Source of the DNA: Elusimicrobia bacterium UBA6262
GTDB taxonomy: Bacteria > CAYTYR01 > UBA6262
Length of the DNA: 64,000 nt
Reading direction: 5' to 3'
NCBI GenBank assembly: GCA_002441095.1
Contig: DJVG01000043.1
Coordinates: 2,254-66,253 of the forward strand
Position numbers and translations under genes: made by a program
Shown: positions 26,205-47,447 of the stretch, in pieces
Layout: each line of letters opens with the position of its first letter
Numbering within the stretch: the stretch's first letter is position 1
Notes under the pieces: generated by a model
Seen by the model: only the letters and a program-made list of their open reading frames with translations
What the model was told of the DNA's origin: nothing
Databases searched by the model: none

Positions 26205-27671
26205 TTACTCGCTAAAATCAACAAATACCGGATTTGTGACCAAGACTGTTTTTTCATTACTGATCTCGAGGCGGTAATATATTTTTTTACCAGCCTCATG
26301 GATCTTATCGGTATAGTTTATCATAAAAGGGGTCTTTACTTCAAATGTTTTAATTTTCAAGCCATTCCTGACCAATTGTATTTTAACCGGGCCCGGAACT
26401 CCTCCACCGCTGATCTCCAGTTGGGGATAGCCCTGTACCCGCAGCTGCTCGCCGGCCACGCTTGCAACTTGAGTCTTGGTGTCTGTGATCTTGAACTGCT
26501 GGAGCCTTAACTTCCTGTCTCCCTCGATCACATACAGGCGCCCTTTTTTCAAGGCCTCCAGGATAGCGGCCTGACTGAGTTCAGACACCAGAGCTACTGT
26601 CTCCAGGCTCTGCAAACGGCTGTCCAAATTTCCTCCCTGGTCATAGGCTACTGCAGCGATAGACCAGATCGGGGTGCTCCTTTGCCCGGCACAATATTCC
26701 TTTAAGATCGTATCCCATAGTCCGCCGATCTTTCCTATTTTATTGAATCCATCATAAAAAATAGCAAACCCGGTATAGCGCTGCGTCCGTAATAAATTAT
26801 CAGCATCATAACCAGTCTCAATACTGATATCACTCCGCTGGCTGATATTCGTCGCTTCCGGATGAGCCCAATATGTCAAAGCTCCGTGGCGCTCAGCGTA
26901 ATCAATAAGAAATTGATATGGCTGCGTACCCTTATCCCCGTGATACTGGTCGAAAGCCAGGCGGCGATAGGGATAATTATTAACTATTCCCAGTAAACTG
27001 AAAAATATTATTGTCAATCCCAGGGTGCGCCAGAATCCTGAATAAGGCCCTAAAGCATGTCCCTGTTCATCAGAATAGTTATATTTTCTTTTTCGGATAC
27101 AGATCACCCCCAGGATCAGCAGTAAAAACGGCCATAACAATTTCAGATCTGCTGTTTCCCAAGGCTGGCGCAAGCTTTTTTTGTTAACCACTGACGGCAA
27201 GTTCTCATAATCAGCGGCTTTATCCAAACCGATGACTAAGATGTGCTTATGCCAGTTCTTAAGCTTAAAGTTTTGGGTATAGGGACTTCCTTCCCAATAG
27301 TAGAAAGGAGCTGACTCAGTCCCGGGGATAATTATTATATCATTATATTGTTGCTGTAAGGCGGCTATTCTTTCCAGGTATTTTCCCGCGCCATAGGTGG
27401 CCAGGGAAGGCATACTTTGCCGGGTCTTGATCAAATTGCGTAAGGGCCATAAACCATATTCCCATTGTAAGTAATCGCGGTCAGTGATGACCACTGCCTG
27501 GAAACCATTATTACGGGCCAGACGGACGATCTCTTCCAATGGCAGATCACCGTCGCTGATAGTCGAACTGATATGTATCGCTACCGGAGCCTGCAGGTAT
27601 TCAGCGGCGACACTGAAGACCCCCTGAAATAGAGCCAATAAAACAAGTATAATTATGTTAATTATTTTCAT
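26205..27671 (-). CDS. hypothetical bitopic membrane protein with N-terminal degenerate PHP-like domain
   Basis: signal/TM, AIHISSTISDG...LEEIVRLARNNGFQAVVITDRD resembles PHP motifs I-III but with His substitutions; central TM LLWPFLLLILGVICI. Confidence 0.3.
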   Translation of the reverse strand: MKIINIIILVLLALFQGVFSVAAEYLQAPVAIHISSTISDGDLPLEEIVRLARNNGFQAVVITDRDYLQWEYGLWPLRNLIKTRQSMPSLATYGAGKYLERIAALQQQYNDIIIIPGTESAPFYYWEGSPYTQNFKLKNWHKHILVIGLDKAADYENLPSVVNKKSLRQPWETADLKLLWPFLLLILGVICIRKRKYNYSDEQGHALGPYSGFWRTLGLTIIFFSLLGIVNNYPYRRLAFDQYHGDKGTQPYQFLIDYAERHGALTYWAHPEATNISQRSDISIETGYDADNLLRTQRYTGFAIFYDGFNKIGKIGGLWDTILKEYCAGQRSTPIWSIAAVAYDQGGNLDSRLQSLETVALVSELSQAAILEALKKGRLYVIEGDRKLRLQQFKITDTKTQVASVAGEQLRVQGYPQLEISGGGVPGPVKIQLVRNGLKIKTFEVKTPFMINYTDKIHEAGKKIYYRLEISNEKTVLVTNPVFVDFSE

Positions 27672-28857
27672 CAGGCACCAAATCCAGATATAAATTATTA
27701 ATGCTGCGTACCATTTCTCTGGCGGTAAAGCGGGTAGTTACTTTTTCCTTAGCTGCCTGGCCCAGGTGTTCCCGTTTTTCACGATCTGTTAATAATTCGA
27801 CCAGGGCCCTGGCCATACTGCCGGCATCCTGCGCCGGGACCAGCAGTCCTGTTTCCTGGTCCCTGACTATTTCCGGCACTCCCCCGACCCTGGTTGCCAC
27901 TACCGGCACGCCATAGGCCGCGGCTTCAAGAATAATTCTGCCCACTGCTTCATTCAATGAGGGCAATACCAGGATATCCAGCACCCCCAGCAATTGTTCG
28001 ACATGTTCCCGCCAACCGGCAAAAACAAAATTACCGGTTAAGTTCGCCGTGCGGCACTGCTCTTCCATTTTTTTCCTAAGCGAACCTTCACCGATGACGA
28101 GAAATATTACATCCGGACAGGCAGCCGCCACTATTTTAGCCGCTTCTACCATTAGCAAAGGCCCTTTTACCGGTTCTAACCTGCCCACCATTCCTACTAC
28201 CCGGGCTGTAGCTGGCAGGCGCCACTCTTCTTTCAGCTTTTTGATCCCTTCCTGCGAGCTCTGGTACTTTTCTATTTCCAAGCCACTCTGGACCACAACT
28301 ACCTTTTTAGCGGAGGTGACACGATAATTGATCAGGTCGCTTTTTTCCAATTCGGTTAAAGCGATAAATTTATCGGAAAACCGGTCAAAAAACCTTTCTA
28401 TGGTGATCACTAATTTACTACCCCAAAATCCGAAATAACCATAAAAGTTATGCCCGTGAGACCAATGAACGATCTTTTTAACTCCGGCCAGCCGTGCCGC
28501 TAACCGCCCCAGGATGCCGGCTTTGGCAGTATGAGTTTGTACCAGGTCGAATTTTCCCGTGTGTAAAATATTATATATCTTAATCAAGGCTGCCAGGTCT
28601 TTTAAAGGATTGATCTCCCGCTGTAGTTGCGGGATATATCTTGTCCTGTTCTTGAATTGTTCCAGAAATTGCTGGTTCGTTTGCGAAATATGAGCTGACC
28701 GCCCGATGACCAGGGTGATATCAAATTTTTCCGGGTCCAGGCCCTGGCAGAGCAACCGCACTATATCCGGCGAGCCGCCCCAATCCATTCTTGTAATTAT
28801 TTGGGCAATTCTTATTTTTTTCACATTAATACCTGTACAATTCTGTGCAACGGGCAC
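27658..28857 (-). CDS. glycosyltransferase family 4 (GT-B)
   Basis: C-terminal EAVGRIILEAAAYGVPVVATRVGGVPEIV (E-x7-E-like GT4 motif). Confidence 0.8.
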   Translation of the reverse strand: MPVAQNCTGINVKKIRIAQIITRMDWGGSPDIVRLLCQGLDPEKFDITLVIGRSAHISQTNQQFLEQFKNRTRYIPQLQREINPLKDLAALIKIYNILHTGKFDLVQTHTAKAGILGRLAARLAGVKKIVHWSHGHNFYGYFGFWGSKLVITIERFFDRFSDKFIALTELEKSDLINYRVTSAKKVVVVQSGLEIEKYQSSQEGIKKLKEEWRLPATARVVGMVGRLEPVKGPLLMVEAAKIVAAACPDVIFLVIGEGSLRKKMEEQCRTANLTGNFVFAGWREHVEQLLGVLDILVLPSLNEAVGRIILEAAAYGVPVVATRVGGVPEIVRDQETGLLVPAQDAGSMARALVELLTDREKREHLGQAAKEKVTTRFTAREMVRSINNLYLDLVPDENN

Positions 28858-29980
28858 AGACCGGGAAGAGCCGGTGCTGTTTCAGCTGCCGCCGGAATTT
28901 TATCGCCTGTGGATCATTCCATAGTTCGGTAAACTTATTGTTTTTTATATTACCGTAAGTATAGCTAAAATTCAAGCAGGGTTTTACTTGCCCGTCGGGG
29001 AAAATATACGCAACCATCCAGGGACTCAGACAGCGGGCCGCCCCGCCGGAGGGCCGGTAGTTCTTGTTAGAGTAATAATCCAGTAATTCTTCCCGGGAGA
29101 AATTGGGATAAAAATCAACGCTGAACGGATAGGTACCGGCCTTGACCTGGGCGATCTTCCGGGAAAGCAGGCCTATATCCATACCCGGCTCAAAAATAAA
29201 ACCTTCCCAGGCTAATGAATCGCAACCCAGTTCCTGATTAATTTTTTCCTGTTCCTGGATAATTGACCGGTCCAGGAAGATCAAATTATGGAAAGTCAGG
29301 GAATTAGCCTTTACCTGCCGGGCTACTTCCGTCAACTGTTCCAAGTGCTGGTAGTTATCCCGGTTGATCGTGCATTGCAAATTGATCAAAGGAATTTTAC
29401 GGTTTTTCTGTTCTTTGTAATAATTTATTTTCTGCAAACCAGCCATGATCTGGTTGAACAACCCAGGCAAACCGCGGATCCGGTCATGCTCTTCGCCTTT
29501 CCCGTCCAGGGAAAGATTTAATTCATCCAGGCCGCTGGCGACTATTTCTTCGGCTGCCTTTTCCAATAGTGACCCGTTCGTGATCATCAGGCAATGCATA
29601 CCTTTTTGTTTGATCCGGCTGATCAGGTCTGTTACCGACGGATACAGCAGGGGTTCGCCGCCAAAAAGGGTAATATTGGGTCGGAAAACTGCCAGGTCGT
29701 CGATAACTGAGTTTAACTCAACGACGGATAATTCCTCCCGGATATGCTGGGAGGTATCCTTTTTAGTTACTCCCCCCTCGCCCCATTGGCCGCACATTTT
29801 ACAGCGCAGGTTGCAACGGTGCGTCAGGAATAAAGTAACTGCCTCGGGGTAGCTGCTTTTCCCCGCGCCAAAAACATACGAGCTAAAGCTGGCCAGTCTT
29901 TTTGAAAATACTTTTAAGGCATACCCCGGCTGCTTGAGGCTTTTATTTAAAAATCTCTGCCAATTTCTTAGTGCGTTCAC
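28826..29980 (-). CDS. radical SAM/SPASM-domain protein
   Basis: CNLRCKMC (CxxxCxxC) near N-terminus; C-terminal Cys cluster CLSPWMVAYIFPDGQVKPCLNF...PVCARC. Confidence 0.7.
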   Translation of the reverse strand: MNALRNWQRFLNKSLKQPGYALKVFSKRLASFSSYVFGAGKSSYPEAVTLFLTHRCNLRCKMCGQWGEGGVTKKDTSQHIREELSVVELNSVIDDLAVFRPNITLFGGEPLLYPSVTDLISRIKQKGMHCLMITNGSLLEKAAEEIVASGLDELNLSLDGKGEEHDRIRGLPGLFNQIMAGLQKINYYKEQKNRKIPLINLQCTINRDNYQHLEQLTEVARQVKANSLTFHNLIFLDRSIIQEQEKINQELGCDSLAWEGFIFEPGMDIGLLSRKIAQVKAGTYPFSVDFYPNFSREELLDYYSNKNYRPSGGAARCLSPWMVAYIFPDGQVKPCLNFSYTYGNIKNNKFTELWNDPQAIKFRRQLKQHRLFPVCARCTELYRY

Positions 29981-31158
29981 GCTATTGACTCCCGTATTAC
30001 TTTTATTATTTTTTCCAGGTCCGCCTCTGCTACTAGCGGGTGAACCGGCAAGGTCAGCATTTTTTCGGCGAAACCAGTAGCTACAGGAAATTCTTCCTGC
30101 CCATAACCTAAAGAAAAGAGCTGCTGGATCGGTTTTAAATATAAACGCGAAGTATCGATCTTATTCTGCTCCAGCGCTTTTTCAACTTTATCTCTCCCTG
30201 CTGTATCTTTAAACACTATTGGCAGGCGCAACACAGCCGGCTCTGTGCCTGGATATATCTCCGGGGTCATGATCCCTTGGGTATTCTTAAGCCCCTCGAT
30301 CAGGGCGAGGGCATTACTCAATCTTTGTTGGCTTACTTCTACTGTTTTTCTTAACAGCGCTATACCAATCCCGGCCTGCGACGAGGAATACTGCCCAACC
30401 TGGAAATCTTGGGGTAATTTATTATCCTTGAATTTCGCTATTAATGAATATCCCAGTCCATAAATAAGCGGCTGATTAGCCAGGGAAAATGCCATGATCT
30501 TGATCGGAGTGGCAATTTTCGGTATTAGGCCCAGCGGCGACAATTGCGCTATTTTAACCGCGATTTTCGCTGCCAGTTCATCGCTCCTGGTAGCGATACA
30601 GCCGCCACCGTATGTGGGCAGGTTCTTCCCGCGGTTAAAACTAAAAAAAGAAACATCAGAAAAATTGCCCACCGGCTGGTTATTGATCTTTGTCCCCCAG
30701 GCTTGGGCGCAATCCTCAATGACATATATATCTGACCGGCTTTTTTTAAATTTTTCTATTTCCGCCACCGCCAAGCCGAACATGTGCGGCATAACAATAG
30801 CCAGAGTATCATGAGTTACTGCTGCTGGCACTAAAGACAGGTCGATATTGAAATCTTTAGCTGAAATATCGCTGAGTACCGGTTTCAGCCCGGCTTTGAT
30901 AATGGGAAGGATCAAGGAAGGCGCAGTATATGCCGGTAATATTACTTCTTTTTTAGGTGAAACTTCCCGCAGCGCCTGCAGGATCAGATAAAAAGCGGTC
31001 AGCCCGGAATTCGTCAAATAAATATTTTTAATCGTCAAGTATTCAGCCAGGGCTTTGGCAAAAGCCACTTTTTGGTCATATATCATTCCCCGGAATCCCC
31101 AACCCAAATCAATCCAATTTAATGGAGCTCCTACTTGTGATAAACGTTTGATCTTCAT
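29977..31158 (-). CDS. DegT/DnrJ/EryC1/StrS-family PLP-dependent sugar aminotransferase
   Basis: 393 aa; FSFNRGKNL (PLP lysine region) and overall AAT-fold layout. Confidence 0.8.
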   Translation of the reverse strand: MKIKRLSQVGAPLNWIDLGWGFRGMIYDQKVAFAKALAEYLTIKNIYLTNSGLTAFYLILQALREVSPKKEVILPAYTAPSLILPIIKAGLKPVLSDISAKDFNIDLSLVPAAVTHDTLAIVMPHMFGLAVAEIEKFKKSRSDIYVIEDCAQAWGTKINNQPVGNFSDVSFFSFNRGKNLPTYGGGCIATRSDELAAKIAVKIAQLSPLGLIPKIATPIKIMAFSLANQPLIYGLGYSLIAKFKDNKLPQDFQVGQYSSSQAGIGIALLRKTVEVSQQRLSNALALIEGLKNTQGIMTPEIYPGTEPAVLRLPIVFKDTAGRDKVEKALEQNKIDTSRLYLKPIQQLFSLGYGQEEFPVATGFAEKMLTLPVHPLVAEADLEKIIKVIRESIA

Positions 31159-31823
31159 ATTTTCTCTATCTCCAAGACCATGATCGGAGCTATTCCCGCT
31201 GGCGGGAAGCCGATAGGCATCTGCCTGGTTATCTTCAAGCCGGCTGCGTCCAGGAGCGGTTTCAGTTCTGCCAGCCGGTATGTCCTTAACGGTAAATCCT
31301 TTACTGTACGGTCATAATACGGAGCCAGCTTATATTTAAAATACAACAACGGGTTATTGGCATTCCGGTAATCAAGGATCACCTTGCCGCCTTTTTTACA
31401 AACCCTGGATATTTCCTGGAAAACCTTACTAACTGTAACCAATGAATCCAGGTTAAAAACAGTATTGATACATACTACTGTCTCAAAATAAGAATCCGCG
31501 AAGGGCAATTTTGCGCCATCGGCCAGGGAAAGCTTTACCGTGCCTATTTCTTTACTGGCCAGCCTTTCTTTGGCTCGCTGTAATATCTCTTCCCAATTAT
31601 CCACGCCATGAAGTTCCAGGGATTTATTAACCAGTGCCAATTCAGCCAGGAACAAGGCCTCACCGCAACCTACTTCCAGCAAGCGACCGGAAGTTGCGGC
31701 GCTGATATTCAGGGCCGCGGCTCTTACTGCCGCCTGCCAATGTCCGCCTGAATATTCTCCTTTTTCCCCGGTCTTGGAAGTTGCCTTCAGGAGATAAGCA
31801 TAAATTTTTTCCAGCAGCAGCAT
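31155..31823 (-). CDS. class I SAM-dependent methyltransferase
   Basis: LLEVGCGEALF motif I. Confidence 0.7.
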   Translation of the reverse strand: MLLLEKIYAYLLKATSKTGEKGEYSGGHWQAAVRAAALNISAATSGRLLEVGCGEALFLAELALVNKSLELHGVDNWEEILQRAKERLASKEIGTVKLSLADGAKLPFADSYFETVVCINTVFNLDSLVTVSKVFQEISRVCKKGGKVILDYRNANNPLLYFKYKLAPYYDRTVKDLPLRTYRLAELKPLLDAAGLKITRQMPIGFPPAGIAPIMVLEIEKI

Positions 31824-31967: not shown

Positions 31968-32702
31968 CTAGTATTTAAACCAGGTATGATCCAGTTTTGC
32001 CTTGCAATATTCCCTTAATTTGTTTATTTTGTTGGTCTGGTCGAATAAAGCCTTGTTCTCGGTCCTTTTTTTAGAGACAAAGAGAACAGAATCGACCCGC
32101 CCCTCGACAATGAATTCCGGCGAGTTCAGAACCAACTCAGATATTGCCTTGTTAACTCCAGCTAAAAAAGCCGGATTCGTCTCCGGGAAATAATCATGAA
32201 AGGCGATAATACCCCCGTCTATAACCTTGCCCTGCCACAGCAGGATGTCCTGCTTCACTGCTTCGTATTCATGATTACCGTCGATAAACAGCAGCCTGAC
32301 CGGAGAGCTAAAATCCCTTACCGCTTCCTCAGACTTTTGAAACAGCGGCACTACTTGTTTAATAATTTTCGCCCGGGTCAGGTTCCGGATAAATTGTTCG
32401 CGTATTGACAGGTCAGGTTGCGGATCAATGGCATAGACCATCTCCCGGCCTGTCATCTTGCTGCCTAAAGCCAGGCAGATGGTAGTCCGTCCCTTAAAAC
32501 TGCCTATTTCCACTATCGCGCCGCCACCCCAGCCGTTTTTAGCGCACCGATACAAAAAATTACTTTCAATAAAAGAAGTCATCTGGCCCAGCTCACCGGC
32601 TTTTAGTAAAACAAACAGCAGCTTGAAATCACGGTAAGCAGCTAAGGCAAAAAAGACCTGCAAAATCCTCCTGGCTTTTTCCTTGAAAGAGACCAGCGGC
32701 AA
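31968..32702 (-). CDS. class I SAM-dependent methyltransferase (O-methyltransferase-like)
   Basis: VEIGSFKGRTT motif I, IDGNHEYE acidic motif. Confidence 0.6.
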   Translation of the reverse strand: MPLVSFKEKARRILQVFFALAAYRDFKLLFVLLKAGELGQMTSFIESNFLYRCAKNGWGGGAIVEIGSFKGRTTICLALGSKMTGREMVYAIDPQPDLSIREQFIRNLTRAKIIKQVVPLFQKSEEAVRDFSSPVRLLFIDGNHEYEAVKQDILLWQGKVIDGGIIAFHDYFPETNPAFLAGVNKAISELVLNSPEFIVEGRVDSVLFVSKKRTENKALFDQTNKINKLREYCKAKLDHTWFKY

Positions 32703-32706
32703 TTTA

Positions 32707-34488: not shown

Positions 34489-34492
34489 AACG

Positions 34493-38009: not shown

Positions 38010-38018
38010 TAATTCCTT

Positions 38019-39496: not shown

Positions 39497-39497
39497 T

Positions 39498-40967: not shown

Positions 40968-41968
40968 TTCATCCCTGCTCCTGAAACATTATAGGCAAAC
41001 TCAGCGATACTAAAATCCAGAGCCGCTATCCTCTTTAATTGGAAAATATCATCTACTGCTGTATTCAAACCGGCCGCGCGTCCAAAACTGCACAGGCCGC
41101 CGCTTTTTTTAATTTTTTCCAGCACTTTGCCGTCACCCGAGCTGAAAGGCAAAGCAAAAGCGATCTCCTGCTGGCTGGTTAAATTCCTGATGAAAGCTAT
41201 TGACTCGGTTATTTCCTGATCCACCTGCTGTTCACTTAGTTCTGTCATATCGCTGTGGGAAACGGTATGCGCCCCCAGCTCAATACCAGCGCCGGCTAAT
41301 AATTTCAGATCTTCAGCTGTAAGGTAAAACTCTCCGGATACCAGTTGTTTGCTGACCCCTAAAGTTTTACTGATCGCCCCAACTGCTCCCAGGCGTTCAG
41401 CGGCAGGCAACTTACGGATCGCCTCAAGTAAGCCAATGATCGACTGGTATTTCTCTTCATCCCCACTTAAATCCAGGGGCACAGTTTTATTGCCGACACT
41501 AATCAATGCTTTTTTCCCGCCTGCTTCATCCAAGATATAATACAACTGGTGCTGCCAATGGACCGCTTCTAAAAAACTTTTTGGGAAAAATATCGTGACC
41601 GGTACTTCATATTTTTTTATGACCGGCCAGGCCAGGATCAAAAAATCCTTGTATCCATCATCAAACGTTACTACGGCACAGTTAGCCAGGCTCTCTCCTG
41701 ACTTTTTCCGCCGAACGCATTCTGCCAGGCTGACCAGGCGATATTTTCTTTTTAAATACTTTATTTGTTTTTCAAAGTTGCTGACGCTTACCGTCAATCC
41801 TCTCAACCGGAAAGAAGAACTGACCCGGGGCAGGACAGAGTCGTCTACCACCCGGTGATATACCAGTATCGGGAATCTTCCCTGCCAGCTCTGCCACCGG
41901 CGGACTAATTCAAAAATACCGGCATAATATCCGGCGGCCAGGATCATACTCTTAACTACTCTCCCCAC
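40964..41968 (-). CDS. polysaccharide deacetylase (NodB homology, CE4)
   Basis: AVVTFDDGYKDF motif 1, HTVSHSD motif. Confidence 0.75.
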   Translation of the reverse strand: MGRVVKSMILAAGYYAGIFELVRRWQSWQGRFPILVYHRVVDDSVLPRVSSSFRLRGLTVSVSNFEKQIKYLKRKYRLVSLAECVRRKKSGESLANCAVVTFDDGYKDFLILAWPVIKKYEVPVTIFFPKSFLEAVHWQHQLYYILDEAGGKKALISVGNKTVPLDLSGDEEKYQSIIGLLEAIRKLPAAERLGAVGAISKTLGVSKQLVSGEFYLTAEDLKLLAGAGIELGAHTVSHSDMTELSEQQVDQEITESIAFIRNLTSQQEIAFALPFSSGDGKVLEKIKKSGGLCSFGRAAGLNTAVDDIFQLKRIAALDFSIAEFAYNVSGAGMK

Positions 41969-41980
41969 TTTTTGCCTCTC

Positions 41981-43144
41981 TTACTGCCGTAATTTATTCC
42001 AGATAATTCCGGCTATGATCCCGGAAACATTTTTATCCCGGTTGATAAAAATATTATTAAACATGTTTTTCCGTTGTTCGCGGAAATTATCCCGCCCTTT
42101 TACCGCCTTATCTATTTCTTCGAGCATCTCTGGGACAGTCTCTACTACTTCTCCCAAAACCCAGCTTAAATAATACCGGTTATTACGCCAAACAACTTTT
42201 TTGGTATTGAAGAACAGGACCGGCTTATCAAAATACAGCCATTCAAAAACACTGCTGCTGACATCAGTAATATAAATATCCGCCGCGGCCATATAATCCA
42301 GGTTGGTCTTTGACCGTTCAGCAATGACGATATCTGGCAGGTTGCCCAACTTCGCCAACAGCGGCTGTATTCTCCTGGCCAGATCAGGATGAGGCATAAA
42401 GATTATATTATATTTCCTGCCGGCACTTAAAGCTTCAAGTAATTCCCTGCCCTGGTCAAAAAAGGAAGTTACCTGCGGGTCGAAATGAGGATTATACATT
42501 ACCACCGGCTTAGTCTCCCGGAACAGGGCTGACGCGCCGGCCTGGTGATAGCGCAAATAATCCAGTTTGGCATACCCGGCGATAACTGCGTTACTAAGAG
42601 GGCCTACTCTTTCTGCCAATTCCTGCTTTTCCTTTTCTCCCGGTAATAGCAGCAGGTCATAATCATGCAAATGCGGGTCATCGCCGAATTTGCGGTTGAC
42701 AAAGCCATGCGGCAAATATATCCAAAAAGTCTTAACTCCTAACTGCCGGAAAACATTATCAAAAAAATCAGTGACCACTACTGCTTTGGGCAGGTGCATG
42801 CGCAAACGGCACAAAAAAACAAACCAGTTAACATTAAAATCTATGCGGTTATAACCTGGATGGCGTATTTTAATAAATTTAACGCGGTTGGGAATGGCCG
42901 CCAGTTCCGCTGCGATGATCTTACTGGCCTCCGCGCTGGTGCTCAGCACCACTACTTCATTTTCAGATTGCAGATTGGAGAGCTCAATAGCGACAAAGAG
43001 CGAATGATAGATATGATGGATAGACTGGTTATAGCAAAAATAGATCCGCGGCGGTAGCGGCCGGATTTTCCGGTAAAGGTTGAGGCTGCCGGTTAAAAGA
43101 ATAGCTATAATTCTTATTACTATTTTTTTTACGCTTTTATGCAT
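41981..43144 (-). CDS. CDP-glycerol glycerophosphotransferase (TagB/TagF family)
   Basis: LPHGF, YNPHFDP, DIYITDVSSSVFEWLYFDKPVLFF blocks characteristic of Glyphos_transf. Confidence 0.7.
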   Translation of the reverse strand: MHKSVKKIVIRIIAILLTGSLNLYRKIRPLPPRIYFCYNQSIHHIYHSLFVAIELSNLQSENEVVVLSTSAEASKIIAAELAAIPNRVKFIKIRHPGYNRIDFNVNWFVFLCRLRMHLPKAVVVTDFFDNVFRQLGVKTFWIYLPHGFVNRKFGDDPHLHDYDLLLLPGEKEKQELAERVGPLSNAVIAGYAKLDYLRYHQAGASALFRETKPVVMYNPHFDPQVTSFFDQGRELLEALSAGRKYNIIFMPHPDLARRIQPLLAKLGNLPDIVIAERSKTNLDYMAAADIYITDVSSSVFEWLYFDKPVLFFNTKKVVWRNNRYYLSWVLGEVVETVPEMLEEIDKAVKGRDNFREQRKNMFNNIFINRDKNVSGIIAGIIWNKLRQ

Positions 43145-44534
43145 GGGCTCCTTCAGGACTCTCTGCCATAAGTTTAGGCAAAGCTATTACCATGGCAGCC
43201 ATGAACCAAAAAGGTTCCATGATGCGGATCAGGATGAATGATTCCGCGGAAAAAGCATGGAATAATAAACCGACGAACCCGGCGATAAAGCCCAGACTTA
43301 AGCCCTGGGCAAAGTTATCCCCTTTGGTTAAGATAAAAGTTTGCTTGCCAGCCCGGTAGATACGGAACATCAGCCAAAGATAAATAGCAAAGCCGATCGT
43401 GCCTACTTCCCTGATGACCCGGGCATACTGGTTATCAACGACAGAACCAGCCGGGACACCGTATCCCAAAAACGGCCGTTTGACCCATTTATTAAAAGCG
43501 TAGGTCCAGCTCTCCACCCGGCTCACTGCTGACTGGTCCAGCGTGAATTTTTTCCCCAGGACAGCATATTGCTGCGACCCGGGCACATCCTTAATAAAAG
43601 TCTGGGCAATGCGCTCTTGGACTTGCCGGGGGAACAGGACCGGCATCAGCAAGAACAGCGAAAGCAAAGCCAGCAGGAGCATCCCTTTTTTTCTCCTGGT
43701 CAATAAAACCAGGGTCAAGCACATCGGGAAAAAAGCGATCCAGGCACCGCGGGAAAGAGTAAATAAAAAAGGAGGAATGATACAGCTGATCACACCCAGC
43801 AGCAGGAGTTGTCGTTTCCAGGCAGTTTCATACAAGAATAATCCCAAAGCCAGGCTCATCATCAGCAGCAGGTATCCGCCTAGCGTATTAGCCTCCCCGG
43901 TCTTTCCTTCAAACGGAGCAGAGACCCGCGCCAAATGCTGGACATTGAGCCAGGCATAGAGGCAAACCGCTACGCAGGTAAGTAACAGGAAAAACACAAA
44001 TATTTTGGATTGCTTGACGGAGCGCAGGTTGTTGGTCACCATAAAGAACAGAATATAATATTCTACATACTTTAAGAGATAAAAAAAGCTTTGCTGGAGT
44101 TTAACATTCCCTTCCAGCGCCCCCAGCAGGGAAGCTACGACACTAACAGTAAAATATAAAATGATCGGGGTATTTAAAGACGTAGGTTGTAATAGTCCTG
44201 TTTCCTTATTAATGGCTATCCTGGCCAGCCAGCCGAAAAAAATAACAAATATCAACGCGTCATCAAACCTGAAGGTCACACTGCGGCCGGTGATCGCCCC
44301 GAGATAAAACTCAGGCGATAACAGCATGGCCAGGATCAGGATGATCAACGCCAGGTCAGGCTTGAGTAAAGCGACCAGGAATAAGCTGAGAGATATTATT
44401 ATGAGTACGGGAAGATAAGGAGGAAGTTTGTAGACCATTACGCCGATAATCAGGAAAATGACCAATAATAATATATATATTATGCCGCTGAGGCGCGTTT
44501 GTCCGCTATTGGAGGCCATGTCATTGTCACGCAT
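43137..44534 (-). CDS. O-antigen polymerase/ligase-like membrane protein (Wzy_C family)
   Basis: 465 aa, ~11 TM with large loop; position between TagF-like and Wzc-like. Confidence 0.6.
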   Translation of the reverse strand: MRDNDMASNSGQTRLSGIIYILLLVIFLIIGVMVYKLPPYLPVLIIISLSLFLVALLKPDLALIILILAMLLSPEFYLGAITGRSVTFRFDDALIFVIFFGWLARIAINKETGLLQPTSLNTPIILYFTVSVVASLLGALEGNVKLQQSFFYLLKYVEYYILFFMVTNNLRSVKQSKIFVFFLLLTCVAVCLYAWLNVQHLARVSAPFEGKTGEANTLGGYLLLMMSLALGLFLYETAWKRQLLLLGVISCIIPPFLFTLSRGAWIAFFPMCLTLVLLTRRKKGMLLLALLSLFLLMPVLFPRQVQERIAQTFIKDVPGSQQYAVLGKKFTLDQSAVSRVESWTYAFNKWVKRPFLGYGVPAGSVVDNQYARVIREVGTIGFAIYLWLMFRIYRAGKQTFILTKGDNFAQGLSLGFIAGFVGLLFHAFSAESFILIRIMEPFWFMAAMVIALPKLMAESPEGAHA

Positions 44535-46477
44535 TAGTTTGTTTTCAACTGCTTATCCGGATTTTTATCAGCTTTGGATTCATTATATTTATATTTATAA
44601 TAATAGGGATAATTGGCCACGATCTCGGTGCCTGGTTTAATATGATTTAAAACTATACCGATGATCTTCCCGCCAGCAGATTCGATCTGCGATTTTGTCC
44701 GGAGCAGGGCGCTGCGGGCGGTTTTGCCCGCTTCGTATACCAGGAGTACCCCGTCTACTTTGTCGGCCAGCAGCATCGCGTCAGCGATCGGCAGGACCGG
44801 AGGAGAATCAAAGAGCACAAAATCAAACTTTCTTCTCAATTCAGCCATTAATTTTATCATATCCTGGGAATTGAGCAGTTCTGCCGGCCGCGCCGGTATG
44901 TGCCCCGCTCCTAATATAAATATGTTTTCAATACCTGGCGTTTTCAGGATATCCTCCATGCTCATGCTGCCCAGCATAATATCAGAAATCGTGCTTACCA
45001 CTTTACCCAAATCCATAACTTTGGTTAGGACTTCATTTAATCCCGGCTCCTCATTCAAGCCAAAGCTCTTAGCCACGGTCGGCCGCCTCAAGTCAGAAGA
45101 GACCAGCAGGACCTTGGCCCCGGTTTGGGCGATAGTCAATCCCAAATTAGTGATCAAGGTGCTTTTACCTTCGCGCGGACCGGCGCTTGTCACCATCAGG
45201 GTCTTCAGAGCGGGACTTAATTTGAGGTTAGTGCGGACCGACCGGTAGGCCTCTGCTAAAATAGAATTAGGCTCATAATGGACAATGAGGCGCATATAGT
45301 ATTCGCTGAGATGCCTTTTCCGGGAGGGGAAAAATGATAATAAAGGCCGTTTATAAAAAGGTCCGTCGTCATCCCCCCATTTGCTTTTCATTGAAGGGAC
45401 GACCCCAACCACCGGCAGTTTGGCAAAATTTTCGACATCTTCAATGGTCCCGATCGAGGTATCCAGGTTCTCTACAATAAAAGCGAAGATCAATCCCAGG
45501 ATCAATCCGATCAATCCCCCTAACAGCAGCCCGGTCCTCCGGTCAGTCCCCATGATCGTGATCGGATGGACAGCCGGGTCAACGATAGTGACATCACCGA
45601 CTTTTTGGGCCTCGGTGATCCTGGCTTCTTCCAGTTTTTCTTTCAGCATGGAATAGAGTTTCTGGTTTACTTCCACTTCCCGGCTCAGCCGGGCATATTC
45701 CAGCTCTTTTTGCGAAAAACCTTTCAGCTGGTACTCTAACTCCCTGATCTGTTCCTTTAGCTGCTGTACCTGCGGATGTTTTTCCGTGTACCTTTGCAGC
45801 AGGGAAATAAGCTCTACCTGCAGATCCACCAGTTTTTGCTGGATCGGGGAATTCATTTTAATATTCCCGGTTTGATTCTGGAATTTACTTAACTTTTCTT
45901 CTGCCTCCAGTAAACGGCTTTCCAAAGCCCCCAATTGTTCTTCAATGAACTGGCGGGTAGCCTGAGCCTGTTTTTTCTTTTGGAACAGGTTTTCCTCGAC
46001 ATATGCCTGCGCCACCATATTGGCCAGCTCCATCGCCCCTGCAGGGTCAGCGGCTTTCGTCGTGATCTGGATAATATTAGTAGCCCGGATGGTTTCAGCA
46101 AATACATTATTCTGTAGTTCCGTGATCACGGAATTTATTTTCTCCAGCGGGCTGTCAGCGGTGATCATTCCCAGGCGCAGGGCCGCCTTTTTGATCACCG
46201 GGAATCCTTTTATATCCTTGGCGGCTGATTCCATGACATCGGCTGGGTTTACTTCCACCCATTCAGTCAGCAATCCAGCCAGGGTCTTTCGTTCTTCTAT
46301 TTTAATAGTAGCTTTAGCTTGATAAGAGGGCACTTGACGGGAAACATAAAGCCAGGCGAATACTATAGCAGCTAAAGTGGTGAGAAAAATGATCAATCTT
46401 CTTTTGCGGAGAATACGTATGTAATCGCTGAGGCTCAATGGGTACTGTGGCAAAGATATCTCCTGGTATAATTTCAT
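44534..46477 (-). CDS. polysaccharide co-polymerase / BY-kinase (Wzc-like: Wzz domain + P-loop tyrosine kinase domain)
   Basis: N-terminal TM + Wzz region + coiled coil + second TM; C-terminal Walker A SAGPREGKST, Walker A' LLVSSD, Walker B FVLFDSPPV. Confidence 0.8.
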   Translation of the reverse strand: MKLYQEISLPQYPLSLSDYIRILRKRRLIIFLTTLAAIVFAWLYVSRQVPSYQAKATIKIEERKTLAGLLTEWVEVNPADVMESAAKDIKGFPVIKKAALRLGMITADSPLEKINSVITELQNNVFAETIRATNIIQITTKAADPAGAMELANMVAQAYVEENLFQKKKQAQATRQFIEEQLGALESRLLEAEEKLSKFQNQTGNIKMNSPIQQKLVDLQVELISLLQRYTEKHPQVQQLKEQIRELEYQLKGFSQKELEYARLSREVEVNQKLYSMLKEKLEEARITEAQKVGDVTIVDPAVHPITIMGTDRRTGLLLGGLIGLILGLIFAFIVENLDTSIGTIEDVENFAKLPVVGVVPSMKSKWGDDDGPFYKRPLLSFFPSRKRHLSEYYMRLIVHYEPNSILAEAYRSVRTNLKLSPALKTLMVTSAGPREGKSTLITNLGLTIAQTGAKVLLVSSDLRRPTVAKSFGLNEEPGLNEVLTKVMDLGKVVSTISDIMLGSMSMEDILKTPGIENIFILGAGHIPARPAELLNSQDMIKLMAELRRKFDFVLFDSPPVLPIADAMLLADKVDGVLLVYEAGKTARSALLRTKSQIESAGGKIIGIVLNHIKPGTEIVANYPYYYKYKYNESKADKNPDKQLKTN

Positions 46478-46493
46478 TATACGTACAGGATGT

Positions 46494-47447
46494 CTACCAA
46501 TTATGAATGGTCTGCGTCGTATACAATCCCTGGGCTATCGGACTCAATATCTGCGTCATGACATAGCTGACATTGGAAATGAAGGTTCTGGGTATATAGA
46601 CAATATCTTCCGGCTCCAGGAGCATGTTCTGGCTCAGGTCGCCCTTCTTCATGGCCTTTACCAGGTCGAGACGGTAACCGACCGGCTTTTGCAAACCACC
46701 CCTGATCAAAACTACGCTGGACATGACCGCGTCCTTCGTATAACCATTGGCCAGGGCGACCAGTTCCAGGACGCTGCTTTTACCGGTTACCGCATAAACT
46801 CCCGGTTTATTCACTTCGCCCAGCAAAATAACTTTCTTGCCGCCGATCTTCCTGATAGTGACCGATACTTCGGGATACTTAATATAATCTTTTAATTTTT
46901 CCGTGATCAACTGGTCCAGCTGGCTCACGCTTAAACCCTCTGCCTGCACATCACCGATCAGCAGGACCGCTATTTTACCGTCTTGGCGCACGGCTGCTTC
47001 CTGGTCCAGGTCCTTATTCTGCCACACCGAAATAAAGAGTATATCATCTACCCCGATTATATACTCAGCACGGGCACTGGCAGCAGCCGGTGCTGACGAT
47101 ATGGCGACGGTATTATTTTGCGGTAGCGGGCCATCGGCCTGGGCTAAGGCCAGATCTTCCTTATCTTTGATCTTCATTTCTGCTTTTTTTATAAAATCCT
47201 GGGCATAAGCAGTATAGATCAGCTTAAAATTCCGCTCTAGTTCGATCACCTGGCTAAAGTTTACTATCGCTGAAGAATAACTGCCTTTTTGCATATTCTC
47301 TTTGCCAGCCTGGTAATAGGCTTCAATTTGCGATAATTTTTCCTGCTCCCCCACATTCATTCCCTGGGCTGGGCTTGAAAAGGAACAATTTACCCAAATT
47401 GCCAGCAGTAATAAACACTGCCACGGGTGAACTTTACGGTTCATCAA
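46494..47447 (-). CDS. polysaccharide export protein (Wza/EpsE-like, SLBB domains)
   Basis: signal peptide; YIIGVDDILFISVW...KIAVLLIGDVQAEGLSVSQL polysaccharide-export-protein motifs. Confidence 0.7.
   Translation of the reverse strand: MMNRKVHPWQCLLLLAIWVNCSFSSPAQGMNVGEQEKLSQIEAYYQAGKENMQKGSYSSAIVNFSQVIELERNFKLIYTAYAQDFIKKAEMKIKDKEDLALAQADGPLPQNNTVAISSAPAAASARAEYIIGVDDILFISVWQNKDLDQEAAVRQDGKIAVLLIGDVQAEGLSVSQLDQLITEKLKDYIKYPEVSVTIRKIGGKKVILLGEVNKPGVYAVTGKSSVLELVALANGYTKDAVMSSVVLIRGGLQKPVGYRLDLVKAMKKGDLSQNMLLEPEDIVYIPRTFISNVSYVMTQILSPIAQGLYTTQTIHNW

What the first reader, a model, noticed from the sequence alone, without database searches (positions are those of the whole stretch)
27658..47447. 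Heavily methylating glycan locus with two radical SAM enzymes (one B12-dependent) and a TagF-like transferase
Within about 20 kb the locus encodes five SAM MTases and a B12-binding radical SAM (35326-36771). It also encodes a radical SAM/SPASM enzyme (28826-29980), a DegT aminotransferase, a CE4 deacetylase, and GT2, GT4 x3, GT9, TagF-like and Wzx/Wzy/Wzc/Wza-type functions. B12-radical-SAM enzymes in glycan loci typically carry out C-methylation or other unactivated-carbon chemistry. This suggests a highly modified surface polymer, a methylated and possibly glycerol-phosphate-decorated amino-sugar polysaccharide. No exosortase or obvious NDP-sugar synthase genes are present in the window.
Basis: partly seen in the sequence, partly recalled or inferred. 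Interest (0 to 1): 0.5.

Follow-up and report, generated by a model that had tools for sequence, protein, structure and literature searches.

The report
Surface-sugar gene cluster with radical enzymes
This is a real gene cluster of about 25 kb for building and exporting a heavily modified cell-surface polysaccharide in an uncultured bacterium; it includes two uncharacterised radical-SAM enzyme families that sit in sugar-building loci in many other uncultured microbes.

Summary
Corrections: there are two GT4 genes, not three; the "SPASM" enzyme has a truncated, four-cysteine (twitch-type) domain; and the cluster runs downstream to 22798.

All 22 genes from 47447 to 22798 lie on the minus strand. 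They encode a Wzx/Wzy/Wzc/Wza-type polysaccharide pathway.

The B12 radical-SAM enzyme lies in the variable, GT- and MT-rich half. Its uncharacterised clade sits next to glycosyltransferases in many phyla.

Neither radical-SAM enzyme is a HemN-type or cofactor-maturation enzyme. The product chemistry (C-methylation, glycerol phosphate) remains untested.

A RiPP-like cassette with a third radical-SAM enzyme adjoins the cluster.

Verdict: a new variant of a known kind, of moderate interest.

The parts
46494..47447 (-). Wza-type outer-membrane polysaccharide export protein (Poly_export + SLBB), with an N-terminal signal-like segment
   Evidence: Pfam Poly_export 76 bits and SLBB_2 51 bits. The XrtA-type export model scores 117 bits against a cutoff of 180. 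Sequence.
44534..46477 (-). Wzc-type chain-length regulator and tyrosine autokinase
   Evidence: Pfam Wzz, GNVR and AAA_31. TIGR01007 tyrosine autokinase scores 164 bits against a cutoff of 108. Two transmembrane segments, Walker A GPREGKST and a C-terminal tyrosine cluster.
43137..44534 (-). Wzy_C-domain membrane protein; a polymerase is most likely, but a ligase cannot be excluded
   Evidence: Pfam Wzy_C 44 bits against a cutoff of 31.7. Conserved in the syntenic loci L002-L006 and L014.
41981..43144 (-). TagF-like polyol-phosphate transferase (accessory gene)
   Evidence: Pfam Glyphos_transf 62 bits, C-terminal half only. Weak match to the TagF-like capsule polymerase Cps3D. A homologue is present only in L002 and L003.
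40964..41968 (-). CE4 polysaccharide de-N-acetylase
   Evidence: Pfam Polysacc_deac_1 65 bits. PgaB- and IcaB-like, below their cutoffs.
39498..40967 (-). Wzx (MOP) flippase
   Evidence: Pfam Polysacc_synt_3 260 bits. NF007773 MOP flippase 286 bits against a cutoff of 273.
38828..39496 (-). SAM methyltransferase (222 aa)
   Evidence: Pfam Methyltransf_23 and Methyltransf_12. Conserved next to Wzx in L002-L006 and L014.
38019..38831 (-). SAM methyltransferase (Methyltransf_11, 270 aa)
   Evidence: Pfam 87 bits.
36768..38009 (-). GT4 glycosyltransferase (b)
   Evidence: Pfam Glycos_transf_1 83 bits. Lies upstream of the B12 radical-SAM gene in all six syntenic loci, directly or with one gene between.
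35326..36771 (-). B12-binding radical-SAM enzyme of an uncharacterised clade; a candidate C-methylase of the glycan
   Evidence: Pfam B12-binding 72 bits and Radical_SAM 81 bits. Invariant C194-x3-C198-x2-C201. The best NCBIfam match is HpnJ, 149 bits against a cutoff of 577. Profile against the PDB: AprD4, QCMT, CysS, OxsB, TokK. 561 relatives in GTDB species genomes.
34493..35329 (-). GT2-like glycosyltransferase
   Evidence: Pfam Glyco_tranf_2_3 48 bits. Directly downstream of the B12 radical-SAM gene in L003-L006 and L014.
32707..34488 (-). Methyltransferase-GT9 (heptosyltransferase-family) fusion protein
   Evidence: Pfam Methyltransf_11 77 bits (residues 30-126) and Glyco_transf_9 105 bits (residues 321-568).
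31968..32702 (-). SAM methyltransferase (Methyltransf_24)
   Evidence: Pfam 82 bits.
31155..31823 (-). SAM methyltransferase (222 aa), first gene of the conserved MT-DegT-rSAM trio
   Evidence: Pfam Methyltransf_31 and Methyltransf_11. Found upstream of DegT in 31 of 45 metagenome loci that have room for it.
29977..31158 (-). DegT-family PLP sugar aminotransferase; the catalytic lysine is retained
   Evidence: Pfam 187 bits. SFNRGK aligns with the SFxxGK lysine of solved aminotransferases. Directly upstream of the radical-SAM gene in 44 of 54 loci.
28826..29980 (-). Twitch-type (truncated SPASM) radical-SAM enzyme; proposed sugar oxidant that feeds DegT
   Evidence: C56-x3-C60-x2-C63 plus C317, C335, C375 and C378 are invariant in 20 homologues. 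AF2 model pLDDT 81. Foldseek ranks BlsE, SkfB and DesII first. Sequence hits to BlsE, SkfB and SpeY.
27658..28857 (-). GT4 glycosyltransferase (a), BshA/MshA-like
   Evidence: Pfam Glycos_transf_1 134 bits. NCBIfam stp2 191 bits, BshA 126 bits and MshA 112 bits, all below their cutoffs. Downstream of the radical-SAM gene in 43 of 56 loci.
26205..27671 (-). Conserved 488-aa protein with a remote PHP/CehA-type metallohydrolase signature; role unknown
   Evidence: PHP 23 bits against a cutoff of 26. CehA_McbA 54 bits against a cutoff of 80. Present in 22 of 42 loci.
25477..26178 (-). WbqC-family protein with a BshC-like / class I aminoacyl-tRNA-synthetase-like fold; proposed amino-acid:amino-sugar ligase
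24565..25392 (-). AAA_22 ATPase resembling the XrtA/PEP-CTERM-associated ATPase
   Evidence: TIGR03015 209 bits against a cutoff of 324. Present in 6 of 25 loci.
23918..24538 (-). PIG-L/LmbE-family de-N-acetylase, BshB1-like
   Evidence: Pfam PIG-L 98 bits. BshB1 127 bits against a cutoff of 182. Present in 16 of 25 loci.
22798..23838 (-). WecA/MraY-family polyprenyl-phosphate HexNAc-1-phosphate transferase (initiating enzyme)
   Evidence: Pfam Glycos_transf_4 130 bits. WecA 123 bits against a cutoff of 326. Present in 14 of 21 loci.
22246..22713 (-). PilZ-domain protein, last same-strand gene; possible c-di-GMP input (membership uncertain)
   Evidence: Pfam PilZ 50 bits. Not found in related loci.
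47479..47530 (.). Divergent pair of sigma-70-like promoter matches between the Wza gene and the ABC transporter genes
   Evidence: Minus strand TTGACA-18-TATATT, 11 of 12, with TG. Plus strand 10 of 12, with TG. These are consensus matches only; the total count is not above the shuffled controls.
47543..53762 (.). Adjacent RiPP-like cassette, recurrently linked to this glycan module. It holds an ABC-2 exporter (47543-49181, +), an S24 peptidase + NTP_transf_5 + GNAT fusion (49213-51354, -), a HprK/ScmC-like kinase (51354-52211, -), a 52-aa precursor (52233-52391, -), a radical-SAM enzyme with a full SPASM domain (52336-53463, -) and PqqD (53463-53762, -).
   Evidence: The precursor gene was also called by the source annotation. 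The same cassette sits inside or beside the module in L082/L092, L105, L107 and L110.

Best explanation
Window 22798-47447 (perhaps from 22246) is one minus-strand operon of about 25 kb for a Wzx/Wzy-dependent, heavily modified surface polysaccharide. It has three parts.

(1) A widely conserved primer module, 31823 to 22798. A WecA-type transferase puts HexNAc-1-phosphate on the polyprenyl carrier. A BshA/MshA-like GT4 adds a HexNAc. A PIG-L/LmbE deacetylase frees its amine. WbqC, which has a BshC / class I aaRS-like nucleotide-binding fold, re-acylates that amine, probably with an amino acid through an adenylate. Next to these, the trio of methyltransferase, DegT and twitch radical-SAM enzyme makes a (methyl)amino sugar without an NAD-dependent dehydratase: the radical-SAM enzyme oxidises a sugar C-OH to a ketone (BtrN/DesII/SpeY logic), DegT transaminates it, and the methyltransferase methylates it.

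(2) A variable decorating region, 39496 to 31968. It holds GT4, GT2, an MT-GT9 fusion, further methyltransferases and the B12 radical-SAM enzyme. The B12 enzyme most likely methylates an unactivated carbon of the growing repeat unit.

(3) The assembly and export genes, 47447 to 39498: Wzx, Wzy, Wzc and Wza, plus a CE4 deacetylase and an accessory TagF-like transferase.

Shown: domain content, motifs, gene order and its conservation, and fold similarity. Inferred: every substrate and every reaction.
For: Operon structure: all genes are on one strand, with overlapping or nearly abutting ends.

Whole-locus synteny appears in L002 (90% identity) and in L003-L006 and L014 (56-62% identity), from Omnitrophota, PVC, Planctomycetia and Firestonebacteria bins.

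The primer module recurs in 80 metagenome loci. Among loci with enough flanking sequence:
- DegT adjacent to the radical-SAM gene: 44 of 54.
- GT4: 43 of 56.
- WbqC: 29 of 36.
- PIG-L: 16 of 25.
- WecA: 14 of 21.

A minimal GT4-WbqC-PIG-L-WecA unit stands alone in a complete Nitrospiraceae genome. A GT4-WbqC-lmbE triad is drawn next to ProRSx, tRNA-ProX and murG in other bacteria (PMC10404621).

No SDR or 4,6-dehydratase lies in the window locus or in the annotated loci L082-L084. Only 1 of 47 unassigned ORFs inside the module, across the 80 loci, is such an enzyme.

The twitch radical-SAM enzyme has no RRE-like N-terminus (two helices only), and its top structural neighbours include the nucleotide-sugar enzymes BlsE and DesII.

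B12 radical-SAM enzyme: a strong B12-binding domain. Its closest full-length solved relative is the Csp3-methylase QCMT. In 74 distant loci, GT-like genes are enriched in the adjacent kilobase, at 0.25 per flank against about 0.1 further away.
Against: - No gene except Wzx and the kinase domain of Wzc reaches a curated family cutoff, so all specific functions are extrapolated from superfamilies.
- The WbqC-BshC link is fold-level only: 9% identity and no sequence hit even with a profile. To my knowledge the ligase chemistry of BshC itself has not been reconstituted in vitro.
- The structural matches of the twitch enzyme are weak (TM about 0.55, 15-19% identity). They include peptide maturases (SkfB, SuiB, PqqE) at similar scores.
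- The best core match of the B12 enzyme is AprD4, which does not bind cobalamin and is a dehydratase (PMC12931638).
- Keto-sugar or NDP-sugar genes could lie elsewhere in the genome. About 30 kb of the source contig, and the rest of the genome, were not examined.
- The source organism is unclassified, so an anaerobic lifestyle is assumed and not shown.
Confidence: 0.6

Rival explanations
1. The glycan is not a free capsule or exopolysaccharide. It is ligated to lipid A-core (as an O-antigen-like chain) or to proteins. In this reading the Wzy_C protein is a WaaL- or PglL-type ligase, and the GT9 enzymes act as in LPS core assembly or protein heptosylation.
For: The Wzy_C domain is shared by polymerases, WaaL ligases and PglL oligosaccharyltransferases (Pfam name 'O-antigen ligase'). 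The best NCBIfam hit is a 'putative O-glycosylation ligase', 43 bits against a cutoff of 188. Wzx also matches an O-glycosylation flippase model, 206 bits against 720. GT9 is the heptosyltransferase family. Giant genes of 7685 and 6964 aa follow the module in L082 and L083.
Against: A complete Wzc tyrosine autokinase and a Wza-type export protein head the operon and are syntenic in related loci. Those are the hallmark of capsule or EPS export. There is no giant gene next to the locus in the window, and only one Wzy_C gene is present.
Confidence: 0.15
2. The twitch radical-SAM enzyme does not make the keto substrate for DegT. Instead it acts after DegT as a DesII-type deaminase/deoxygenase, or as a BlsE-type decarboxylase or an epimerase.
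For: BlsE (a decarboxylase) is the top hit by sequence and by structure, and DesII is third. In the desosamine pathway an aminotransferase (DesI) precedes DesII, and an N,N-dimethyltransferase finishes the sugar. That matches the conserved methyltransferase-DegT-rSAM trio here (established pathway knowledge).
Against: DesI needs an NDP-4-keto-6-deoxy sugar from a 4,6-dehydratase, which is absent from the module. There is only one aminotransferase, whereas the desosamine route needs two. Identities to DesII and BlsE are only 15-19%.
Confidence: 0.25
3. The B12 radical-SAM enzyme is not a C-methyltransferase of the glycan. It may catalyse other radical chemistry, such as dehydration as in AprD4 or ring contraction as in OxsB/HpnJ, or it may act on a non-sugar substrate such as the lipid carrier.
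For: The best core match is AprD4, a diol dehydratase. The best NCBIfam match is HpnJ (149 bits), with BchE and lipid-modifying B12 radical-SAM enzymes close behind. The superfamily is chemically diverse (PMC12931638).
Against: C-methylation is the commonest known activity of this class (PMC12931638). The N-terminal B12-binding domain is well conserved (72 bits), unlike the cobalamin-free AprD4. The closest full-length solved relative is the Csp3-methylase QCMT. The locus is otherwise methylation-rich.
Confidence: 0.3
4. The two radical-SAM genes are passengers: generic cofactor-maturation or peptide-maturation enzymes that have nothing to do with the glycan.
For: The highest NCBIfam scores of the twitch enzyme are to the tungsten-cofactor maturase and the NirJ/AhbC/AhbD families. 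A true peptide-maturase cassette lies nearby.
Against: All those scores are far below their cutoffs: 123 against 380, and 99-108 against 500-650. HemW scores 34 bits against 205 for the B12 enzyme. The twitch enzyme is flanked by DegT and GT4 in most of the 80 independent loci. It has no RRE and no adjacent precursor gene. The B12 enzyme keeps its place between glycosyltransferases in six syntenic loci.
Confidence: 0.03

Closest known systems
Wzx/Wzy-dependent capsule and EPS loci (E. coli group 1 capsule and colanic acid type; XrtA/PEP-CTERM-associated EPS loci)
   Same: An initiating polyprenyl-phosphate sugar-phosphate transferase, a MOP flippase, a Wzy_C protein, a Wzc tyrosine autokinase, a Wza-type exporter and an ExeA-like ATPase, all in one operon.
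   Different: No exosortase is present, and all XrtA-specific models score below their cutoffs. No NDP-sugar genes are present. It has two radical-SAM enzymes, five methyltransferase domains and a WbqC/PIG-L pair.
Bacillithiol and mycothiol biosynthesis (BshA-BshB-BshC; MshA-MshB-MshC)
   Same: The same three-step logic is suggested: a GT4 transfers GlcNAc, an LmbE/PIG-L enzyme removes the acetyl group, and a class I aaRS-like enzyme acylates the amine. GT4_a and PIG-L have BshA/MshA and BshB1 among their best named hits. WbqC's best structural match is BshC.
   Different: All three score below the family cutoffs. WbqC is only the 233-aa core of the 540-aa BshC and shows no detectable sequence similarity to it. 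Here the unit is coupled to a membrane WecA-type transferase and to Wzx/Wzy export, so the acceptor would be a lipid-linked glycan and not malate or inositol.
Radical-SAM sugar enzymes of antibiotic pathways (BtrN, DesII, SpeY, BlsE) with their DegT-family partners (BtrS, DesI/DesV) and the N-methylase DesVI
   Same: A twitch or truncated-SPASM radical-SAM enzyme sits next to a DegT aminotransferase and a small SAM methyltransferase. The top solved matches are BlsE, DesII and SpeY.
   Different: Identity is 15-19% only, and the context is a primary surface-glycan operon rather than a secondary-metabolite cluster. The substrate is unknown and the partner dehydratase is absent.
Cobalamin-dependent (class B) radical-SAM enzymes: GenK, Fom3, TokK, QCMT (methylases); OxsB; and the B12-free relative AprD4
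   Same: An N-terminal Rossmann B12-binding domain plus a CX3CX2C radical-SAM core. The profile matches QCMT, CysS, OxsB, TokK and TsrM.
   Different: It belongs to none of the curated subfamilies. Its clade is uncharacterised and spread over more than 15 bacterial and archaeal phyla, often as arrays of paralogues next to glycosyltransferases.
GT4-WbqC-LmbE operons with ProRSx and tRNA-ProX (PMC10404621)
   Same: The same GT4/WbqC/LmbE triad next to a lipid-linked-glycan enzyme: murG there, a WecA-type transferase here.
   Different: No aaRS paralogue or tRNA gene was seen among the called ORFs of the locus. I did not run a tRNA scan.
Hypervariable ~25-kb 'polysaccharide cassette' reported in Omnitrophota genomes (bioRxiv 10.64898/2026.06.07.730766)
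   Same: Similar size. A conserved-plus-variable architecture is inferred here from the comparison of related loci.
   Different: That paper gives no gene-level description, so identity with this locus is not established. The source organism of the window is unclassified.

Membership tests
Wzx/Wzy-dependent polysaccharide assembly and export system | Initiating polyprenyl-phosphate sugar-1-phosphate transferase | tested here: met
   22798-23838: Pfam Glycos_transf_4 130 bits against a cutoff of 27. The WecA equivalog scores only 123 bits against 326, so the sugar specificity is not assigned.
Wzx/Wzy-dependent polysaccharide assembly and export system | MOP-family Wzx flippase | tested here: met
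   39498-40967: NF007773 286 bits against a cutoff of 273.
Wzx/Wzy-dependent polysaccharide assembly and export system | Wzy polymerase, as distinct from a WaaL or PglL ligase | tested here: inconclusive
   The Wzy_C domain is present (44 bits against 31.7), but the domain does not separate polymerases from ligases.
Wzx/Wzy-dependent polysaccharide assembly and export system | PCP-2a tyrosine autokinase (Walker A, A' and B motifs, C-terminal tyrosine cluster) and an OPX exporter | tested here: met
   TIGR01007 164 bits against a cutoff of 108. Motifs and the YPYYYKYKY tail. Poly_export + SLBB.
XrtA/PEP-CTERM exosortase-associated EPS system | Exosortase gene, and family-specific models (TIGR03015, 03027, 03007, 03088) above their cutoffs | tested here: not met
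   No exosortase in the window or within 10 kb of either end. Scores against cutoffs: 209/324, 117/180, 149/279, 191/409.
Cobalamin-dependent (class B) radical-SAM methyltransferases | N-terminal B12-binding Rossmann domain plus a CX3CX2C radical-SAM core | tested here: met
   PF02310 72 bits against 32. PF04055 81 bits. C194, C198 and C201 are invariant in 27 homologues.
Cobalamin-dependent (class B) radical-SAM methyltransferases | Membership of a characterised methylase subfamily (GenK/Fom3/TokK/QCMT/PhpK and similar) | tested here: not met
   All NCBIfam models are far below their cutoffs (for example QCMT/TIGR04014 92 against 360, PhpK 100 against 600). The PDB profile hit to QCMT is only 83 bits.
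Cobalamin-dependent (class B) radical-SAM methyltransferases | Cobalamin binding and methyl transfer | not testable with these tools
   Needs biochemistry.
Twitch/SPASM radical-SAM enzymes acting on sugars (BtrN, DesII, SpeY, BlsE) | CX3CX2C motif plus a truncated SPASM domain with one four-cysteine auxiliary-cluster site | tested here: met
   C56, C60 and C63. C317-x12-G-x4-C335 ... C375-x2-C378, then the protein ends. All are invariant. The Pfam SPASM model matches at 51 bits. The twitch model NF033640 scores 91 bits against 170.
Twitch/SPASM radical-SAM enzymes acting on sugars (BtrN, DesII, SpeY, BlsE) | Specific homology to one of the characterised sugar enzymes, and a sugar substrate | tested here: inconclusive
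   BlsE, DesII and SpeY are among the best hits, but at 15-29% identity and TM about 0.55, with peptide maturases at similar scores. The substrate cannot be tested here.
Bacillithiol-type GT4 / LmbE / BshC pathway | BshA, BshB and BshC equivalog models above their cutoffs | tested here: not met
TagF-like polyol-phosphate transferases | Glyphos_transf domain | tested here: met
   62 bits against a cutoff of 22, but only profile positions 191-366 are matched.
TagF-like polyol-phosphate transferases | A linked supply of CDP-glycerol or CDP-ribitol (TagD/TarI-type cytidylyltransferase) | tested here: not met
   No such domain appears among the window ORFs scanned. GlpK at 20561-22039 is not conserved with the locus (0 of 80).
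   HemW 34 against 205. Coproporphyrinogen oxidase 26 against 653. Tungsten-cofactor maturase 123 against 380. NirJ and Ahb 99-108 against 500-650.

The most novel reading that the evidence does not exclude
The conserved module is a previously undescribed, NAD-independent (anaerobic) route to decorated amino sugars in primary surface glycans. A twitch radical-SAM enzyme oxidises a lipid- or nucleotide-linked sugar for DegT transamination and N-methylation. A bacillithiol-like triad (GT4, LmbE-type deacetylase and WbqC as a minimal BshC-like ligase) installs an N-aminoacyl-glucosamine. The B12 radical-SAM clade would then be the first cobalamin-dependent C-methylases of bacterial and archaeal surface polysaccharides. 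The recurrently linked RiPP cassette (HprK-like kinase, PF14907 nucleotidyltransferase, precursors ending in Ser) may yield a phospho-glycosylated peptide that draws on the same sugar pool.
Probability: 0.2. Interest if true: 0.75.

Novelty: new variant of a known kind. Interest (0 to 1): 0.5.

Why it matters
Radical-SAM chemistry on sugars is known almost only from antibiotic pathways. This locus shows two uncharacterised radical-SAM families embedded in surface-polysaccharide loci. One is a 384-aa twitch enzyme with hundreds of relatives at about 45-60% identity. The other is a B12-binding clade with more than 560 relatives in GTDB species genomes.

These loci come from many uncultured, mostly anoxic-habitat lineages, including Omnitrophota, Nitrospirota, Elusimicrobiota and DPANN archaea.

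If the proposed roles hold, they would explain how such organisms make amino sugars and methylated sugars without the usual NAD-dependent dehydratases. They would also give the orphan WbqC family (PF08889) a testable function as a BshC-like ligase, and supply new C-H-functionalising glycan enzymes.

The conserved-plus-variable architecture also fits reports of strain-variable polysaccharide cassettes in these lineages.

Tried and rejected
1. An apparent DegT-radical-SAM fusion protein in L003 (15845-17899, 684 aa) looked like Rosetta-stone evidence. It is an artefact of a 100-N scaffold gap at 16604-16703.
2. I tried to assign specific functions with NCBIfam equivalog models. Nothing in the locus reaches its cutoff except Wzx and the kinase domain of Wzc.
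3. I looked for a sequence-level link between WbqC and any solved structure, with a single sequence and with a 25-sequence profile. There was none. The afdb50 fold library was unavailable.
4. The PHP-like 488-aa protein has no informative PDB sequence hit.
5. I considered GlpK (20561-22039) as the source of glycerol phosphate for the TagF-like enzyme. It is not conserved with the locus in any of 80 related loci and is separated from it by the PilZ gene, so I dropped the idea.
6. I searched for an exosortase and for NDP-sugar genes in the whole window and 10 kb beyond each end. None were found.
7. Promoter and terminator scans gave promoter counts not above the shuffled controls: 28 against 21.7±4.2, and 35 against 30.1±5.8. 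Only the divergent pair at 47479-47530 is worth noting. Terminator-like sites lie mostly inside genes.
8. Taxonomy: protein clusters at 90% identity or more are labelled only 'MAG ... [bacterium]'. The 90%-identical bin L002 is labelled 'uncultured Clostridia bacterium', which I could not verify. The organism remains unassigned.
9. Literature searches for this module, for B12 radical-SAM enzymes in capsule loci and for a BshC-WbqC link found nothing specific.
10. The RiPP precursor peptides have no NCBIfam match.

Full report
**Observation**

All ORFs between 22246 and 47447 lie on the minus strand with overlapping or nearly abutting ends.
- B12-binding + Radical_SAM at 35326-36771.
- Radical_SAM + SPASM at 28826-29980.
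- DegT at 29977-31158.
- CE4 at 40964-41968.
- GT2 at 34493-35329.
- A methyltransferase-GT9 fusion at 32707-34488.
- A TagF-like Glyphos_transf domain at 41981-43144.
- Wzx at 39498-40967, the only biosynthetic gene that passes a curated cutoff (286 bits against 273).
- Wzy_C at 43137-44534.
- A Wzc-type tyrosine autokinase at 44534-46477, with Walker motifs and a YPYYYKYKY tail.
- A Wza-type exporter at 46494-47447.
- Five SAM methyltransferase domains.

Three corrections are needed. First, there are two GT4 genes in the range, not three. Second, the SPASM domain is truncated after CX12GX4C...CX2C, which leaves four invariant cysteines; that is a twitch-type domain with a single auxiliary cluster. 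Third, the locus does not end at 27658.

**True extent**

Downstream on the same strand are six more genes:
- a 488-aa protein with a remote PHP/CehA signature (26205-27671);
- WbqC (25477-26178);
- an AAA_22 ATPase resembling the XrtA-associated ATPase (24565-25392);
- a PIG-L/LmbE deacetylase (23918-24538);
- the initiating WecA/MraY-family transferase (22798-23838);
- a PilZ protein (22246-22713).

The rest of the window contains no exosortase and no NDP-sugar synthesis gene. It holds sensor kinases, glutamine and glutamate synthases, a zinc ABC system and glpK. The 10 kb beyond each end of the window on the 113,659-bp source contig has none either. The organism is unclassified: proteins at 90% identity or more are labelled only 'MAG ... 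[bacterium]'.

**The B12 radical-SAM enzyme**

It has a strong B12-binding domain (72 bits) and an invariant C194-x3-C198-x2-C201 motif. No curated subfamily is reached: HpnJ scores 149 against 577, BchE 141 against 481 and QCMT 92 against 360.

A 27-sequence profile finds AprD4 (radical-SAM core only), then the Csp3-methylase QCMT across both domains, then CysS, OxsB, TokK and TsrM. PDB entry 9CCB is identified as QCMT in PMC12931638.

Homologues are abundant and unnamed. In one-genome-per-species GTDB contigs, 561 relatives were found.

Six loci reproduce the whole window locus: L002 at 90% identity, and L003-L006 and L014 at 56-62%. They come from Omnitrophota, PVC, Planctomycetia and Firestonebacteria bins. 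The shared order is Wzc-Wzy-(TagF)-(CE4)-Wzx-MT-(MT)-GT4-[B12 rSAM]-GT2-(MT-)GT9-MT-DegT-(rSAM)-GT4-PHP-like-WbqC-ATPase.

In 74 more distant loci (33-48% identity, more than 15 phyla including DPANN and Methanosarcinales archaea), GT-like genes are enriched in the adjacent kilobase, at 0.25 per flank against about 0.1 further out. In 27 of those loci there are extra B12 radical-SAM paralogues within 10 kb. The enzyme is therefore a component of glycan loci, in their variable part. Its reaction is not shown.

**The twitch radical-SAM enzyme**

Its homologues are remarkably uniform: about 384 aa and 57-63% identical across more than 120 clusters. Eighty metagenome loci show a near-invariant module: (GT9s)-MT-DegT-rSAM-GT4-(PHP-like)-WbqC-(ATPase)-PIG-L-WecA. 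Among loci with enough flanking sequence:

| Neighbour | Loci with it |
|---|---|
| DegT adjacent | 44 of 54 |
| Methyltransferase | 31 of 45 |
| GT4 | 43 of 56 |
| WbqC | 29 of 36 |
| PIG-L | 16 of 25 |
| WecA | 14 of 21 |

Annotated examples are L082-L084.

The AF2 model (pLDDT 81) has only two N-terminal helices and no RRE. Foldseek ranks BlsE, SkfB and DesII first. Sequence search finds BlsE, SkfB and the 'twitch radical SAM dehydrogenase SpeY'. These matches are weak (TM about 0.55).

DegT keeps its PLP lysine, and its nearest solved relatives include QdtB and the scyllo-inositol and 2-deoxy-scyllo-inosose aminotransferases.

The module contains no SDR-type dehydratase or oxidoreductase that could supply a keto sugar. 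There is none in the window or in L082-L084. Only 1 of 47 otherwise unassigned ORFs inside the module, across 80 loci, is a GDP-mannose-dehydratase-type enzyme.

From the established BtrN/BtrS, DesII and SpeY precedents, I infer that the radical-SAM enzyme generates the ketone, DegT aminates it, and the adjacent methyltransferase methylates the product.

**WbqC and the bacillithiol-like triad**

The neighbouring GT4 has BshA and MshA among its best named hits. The best named hit of the PIG-L enzyme is BshB1.

The unit GT4-WbqC-PIG-L-WecA stands alone in a complete Nitrospiraceae genome. A GT4-WbqC-lmbE triad is drawn beside a ProRS paralogue, a tRNA and murG in other bacteria (PMC10404621).

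I therefore propose three steps on a lipid-linked acceptor: HexNAc transfer, de-N-acetylation, and ATP- or aminoacyl-tRNA-dependent N-acylation. This is analogy, not membership, because all three proteins fail the Bsh family cutoffs. No paper in the searchable library mentions BshC and WbqC together.

**Model**

- Primer module (31823 to 22798): builds a decorated amino-sugar primer.
- Variable region (39496 to 31968): extends it and methylates it. This region holds the B12 enzyme, most plausibly as a C-methylase.
- 47447 to 39498: encodes flipping, polymerisation, chain-length control, export, de-N-acetylation and an accessory TagF-like step.

Glycerol-phosphate decoration is unsupported beyond the domain hit. 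The TagF-like gene occurs in only 2 of 80 related loci, no cytidylyltransferase was seen, and glpK is not conserved with the locus.

**Rivals**

- The glycan is ligated to LPS or to protein. The Wzc/Wza pair argues against this.
- The twitch enzyme has DesII-like or BlsE-like chemistry.
- The B12 enzyme is not a methylase.
- The radical-SAM genes are unrelated passengers. Synteny effectively excludes this.

**Side finding**

Upstream, and divergently transcribed from the Wza gene, lie:
- an ABC-2 exporter (47543-49181);
- on the minus strand, an S24 peptidase + NTP_transf_5 + GNAT fusion, a HprK/ScmC-like kinase, a 52-aa precursor (52233-52391, also called by the source annotation), a radical-SAM enzyme with a full seven-cysteine SPASM domain, and PqqD.

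The same cassette lies inside or beside the glycan module in L082/L092, L105, L107 and L110. The precursors share the leader KPxIxxVxLxPE(E/Q)AVL and all end in Ser.

[quoted passage not shown] This suggests a phospho-glycosylated, radical-SAM-crosslinked peptide here.

**Verdict**

The locus is a new variant of a known kind of system. Its value lies in two widespread, uncharacterised radical-SAM families and in a testable function for WbqC.

Noticed in passing
window 47543-53762: RiPP-like cassette: an ABC-2 exporter, an S24 peptidase + NTP_transf_5 + GNAT fusion, a HprK/ScmC-like kinase, a 52-aa Cys-containing precursor ending in Ser (52233-52391, minus strand), a radical-SAM enzyme with a full SPASM domain, and PqqD. 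Homologous cassettes and precursors (leader KPxIxxVxLxPEEAVL, C-terminal Ser) recur inside or beside the same glycan module in L082/L092, L105, L107 and L110. The precursor has no NCBIfam family.
   Followed up: partly
window 22246-22713 and 53783-54910: A PilZ protein and an HD-GYP-type phosphodiesterase flank the region, which suggests c-di-GMP control. HD-GYP-like genes also sit at the locus edge in L105, L127 and L133. A perfect TTGACA-18-TATAAT match lies at 54910-54881 on the minus strand, over the nominal TTG start of the HD gene.
   Followed up: no
L003 15845-17899: An apparent 684-aa DegT-radical-SAM fusion is an artefact of a 100-N scaffold gap (16604-16703). ORF tools read through such gaps.
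   Followed up: yes
L082 17894-21152; L083 18225-21158: Giant genes (7685 and 6964 aa products), preceded by an IS200-type Y1 transposase, lie just downstream of the WecA gene of the module in two genomes. There is no equivalent in the window.
   Followed up: no
L007 1841-18653 (Woesearchaeota), also L012, L013, L020: Arrays of up to four B12-binding radical-SAM paralogues within 20 kb, interleaved with methyltransferase- and GT-like genes. 27 of 74 distant loci have at least one extra paralogue within 10 kb.
   Followed up: partly
L004 8968-10011; L152, L155, L157, L159, L164 just upstream of the radical-SAM gene: Lineage-specific insertions: a PGA_cap (CapA-like) gene directly upstream of the B12 radical-SAM gene, and a NodU/CmcH-type carbamoyltransferase between DegT and the twitch radical-SAM gene in a subclade at 44-45% identity.
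   Followed up: partly
L168 8249-12391 (Nitrospiraceae CP070788.1): A minimal GT4-WbqC-PIG-L-WecA unit among housekeeping genes, preceded by a 119-aa SPASM-only fragment that looks like the remnant of a twitch radical-SAM gene.
   Followed up: no
window 2185-10101: A 1300-aa protein made almost entirely of PAS domains, followed by a PAS protein and a 1059-aa dCache-HAMP-PAS histidine kinase with a weak C-terminal GGDEF match.
   Followed up: no
window 10220-12412 and 55002-63960: Nitrogen-assimilation genes flank the region: type III glutamine synthetase, glutamate synthase large and small subunits, a GATase, and a second GSIII gene. That second gene is cut by the window end, and the source contig shows it is 729 aa (L165).
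   Followed up: partly
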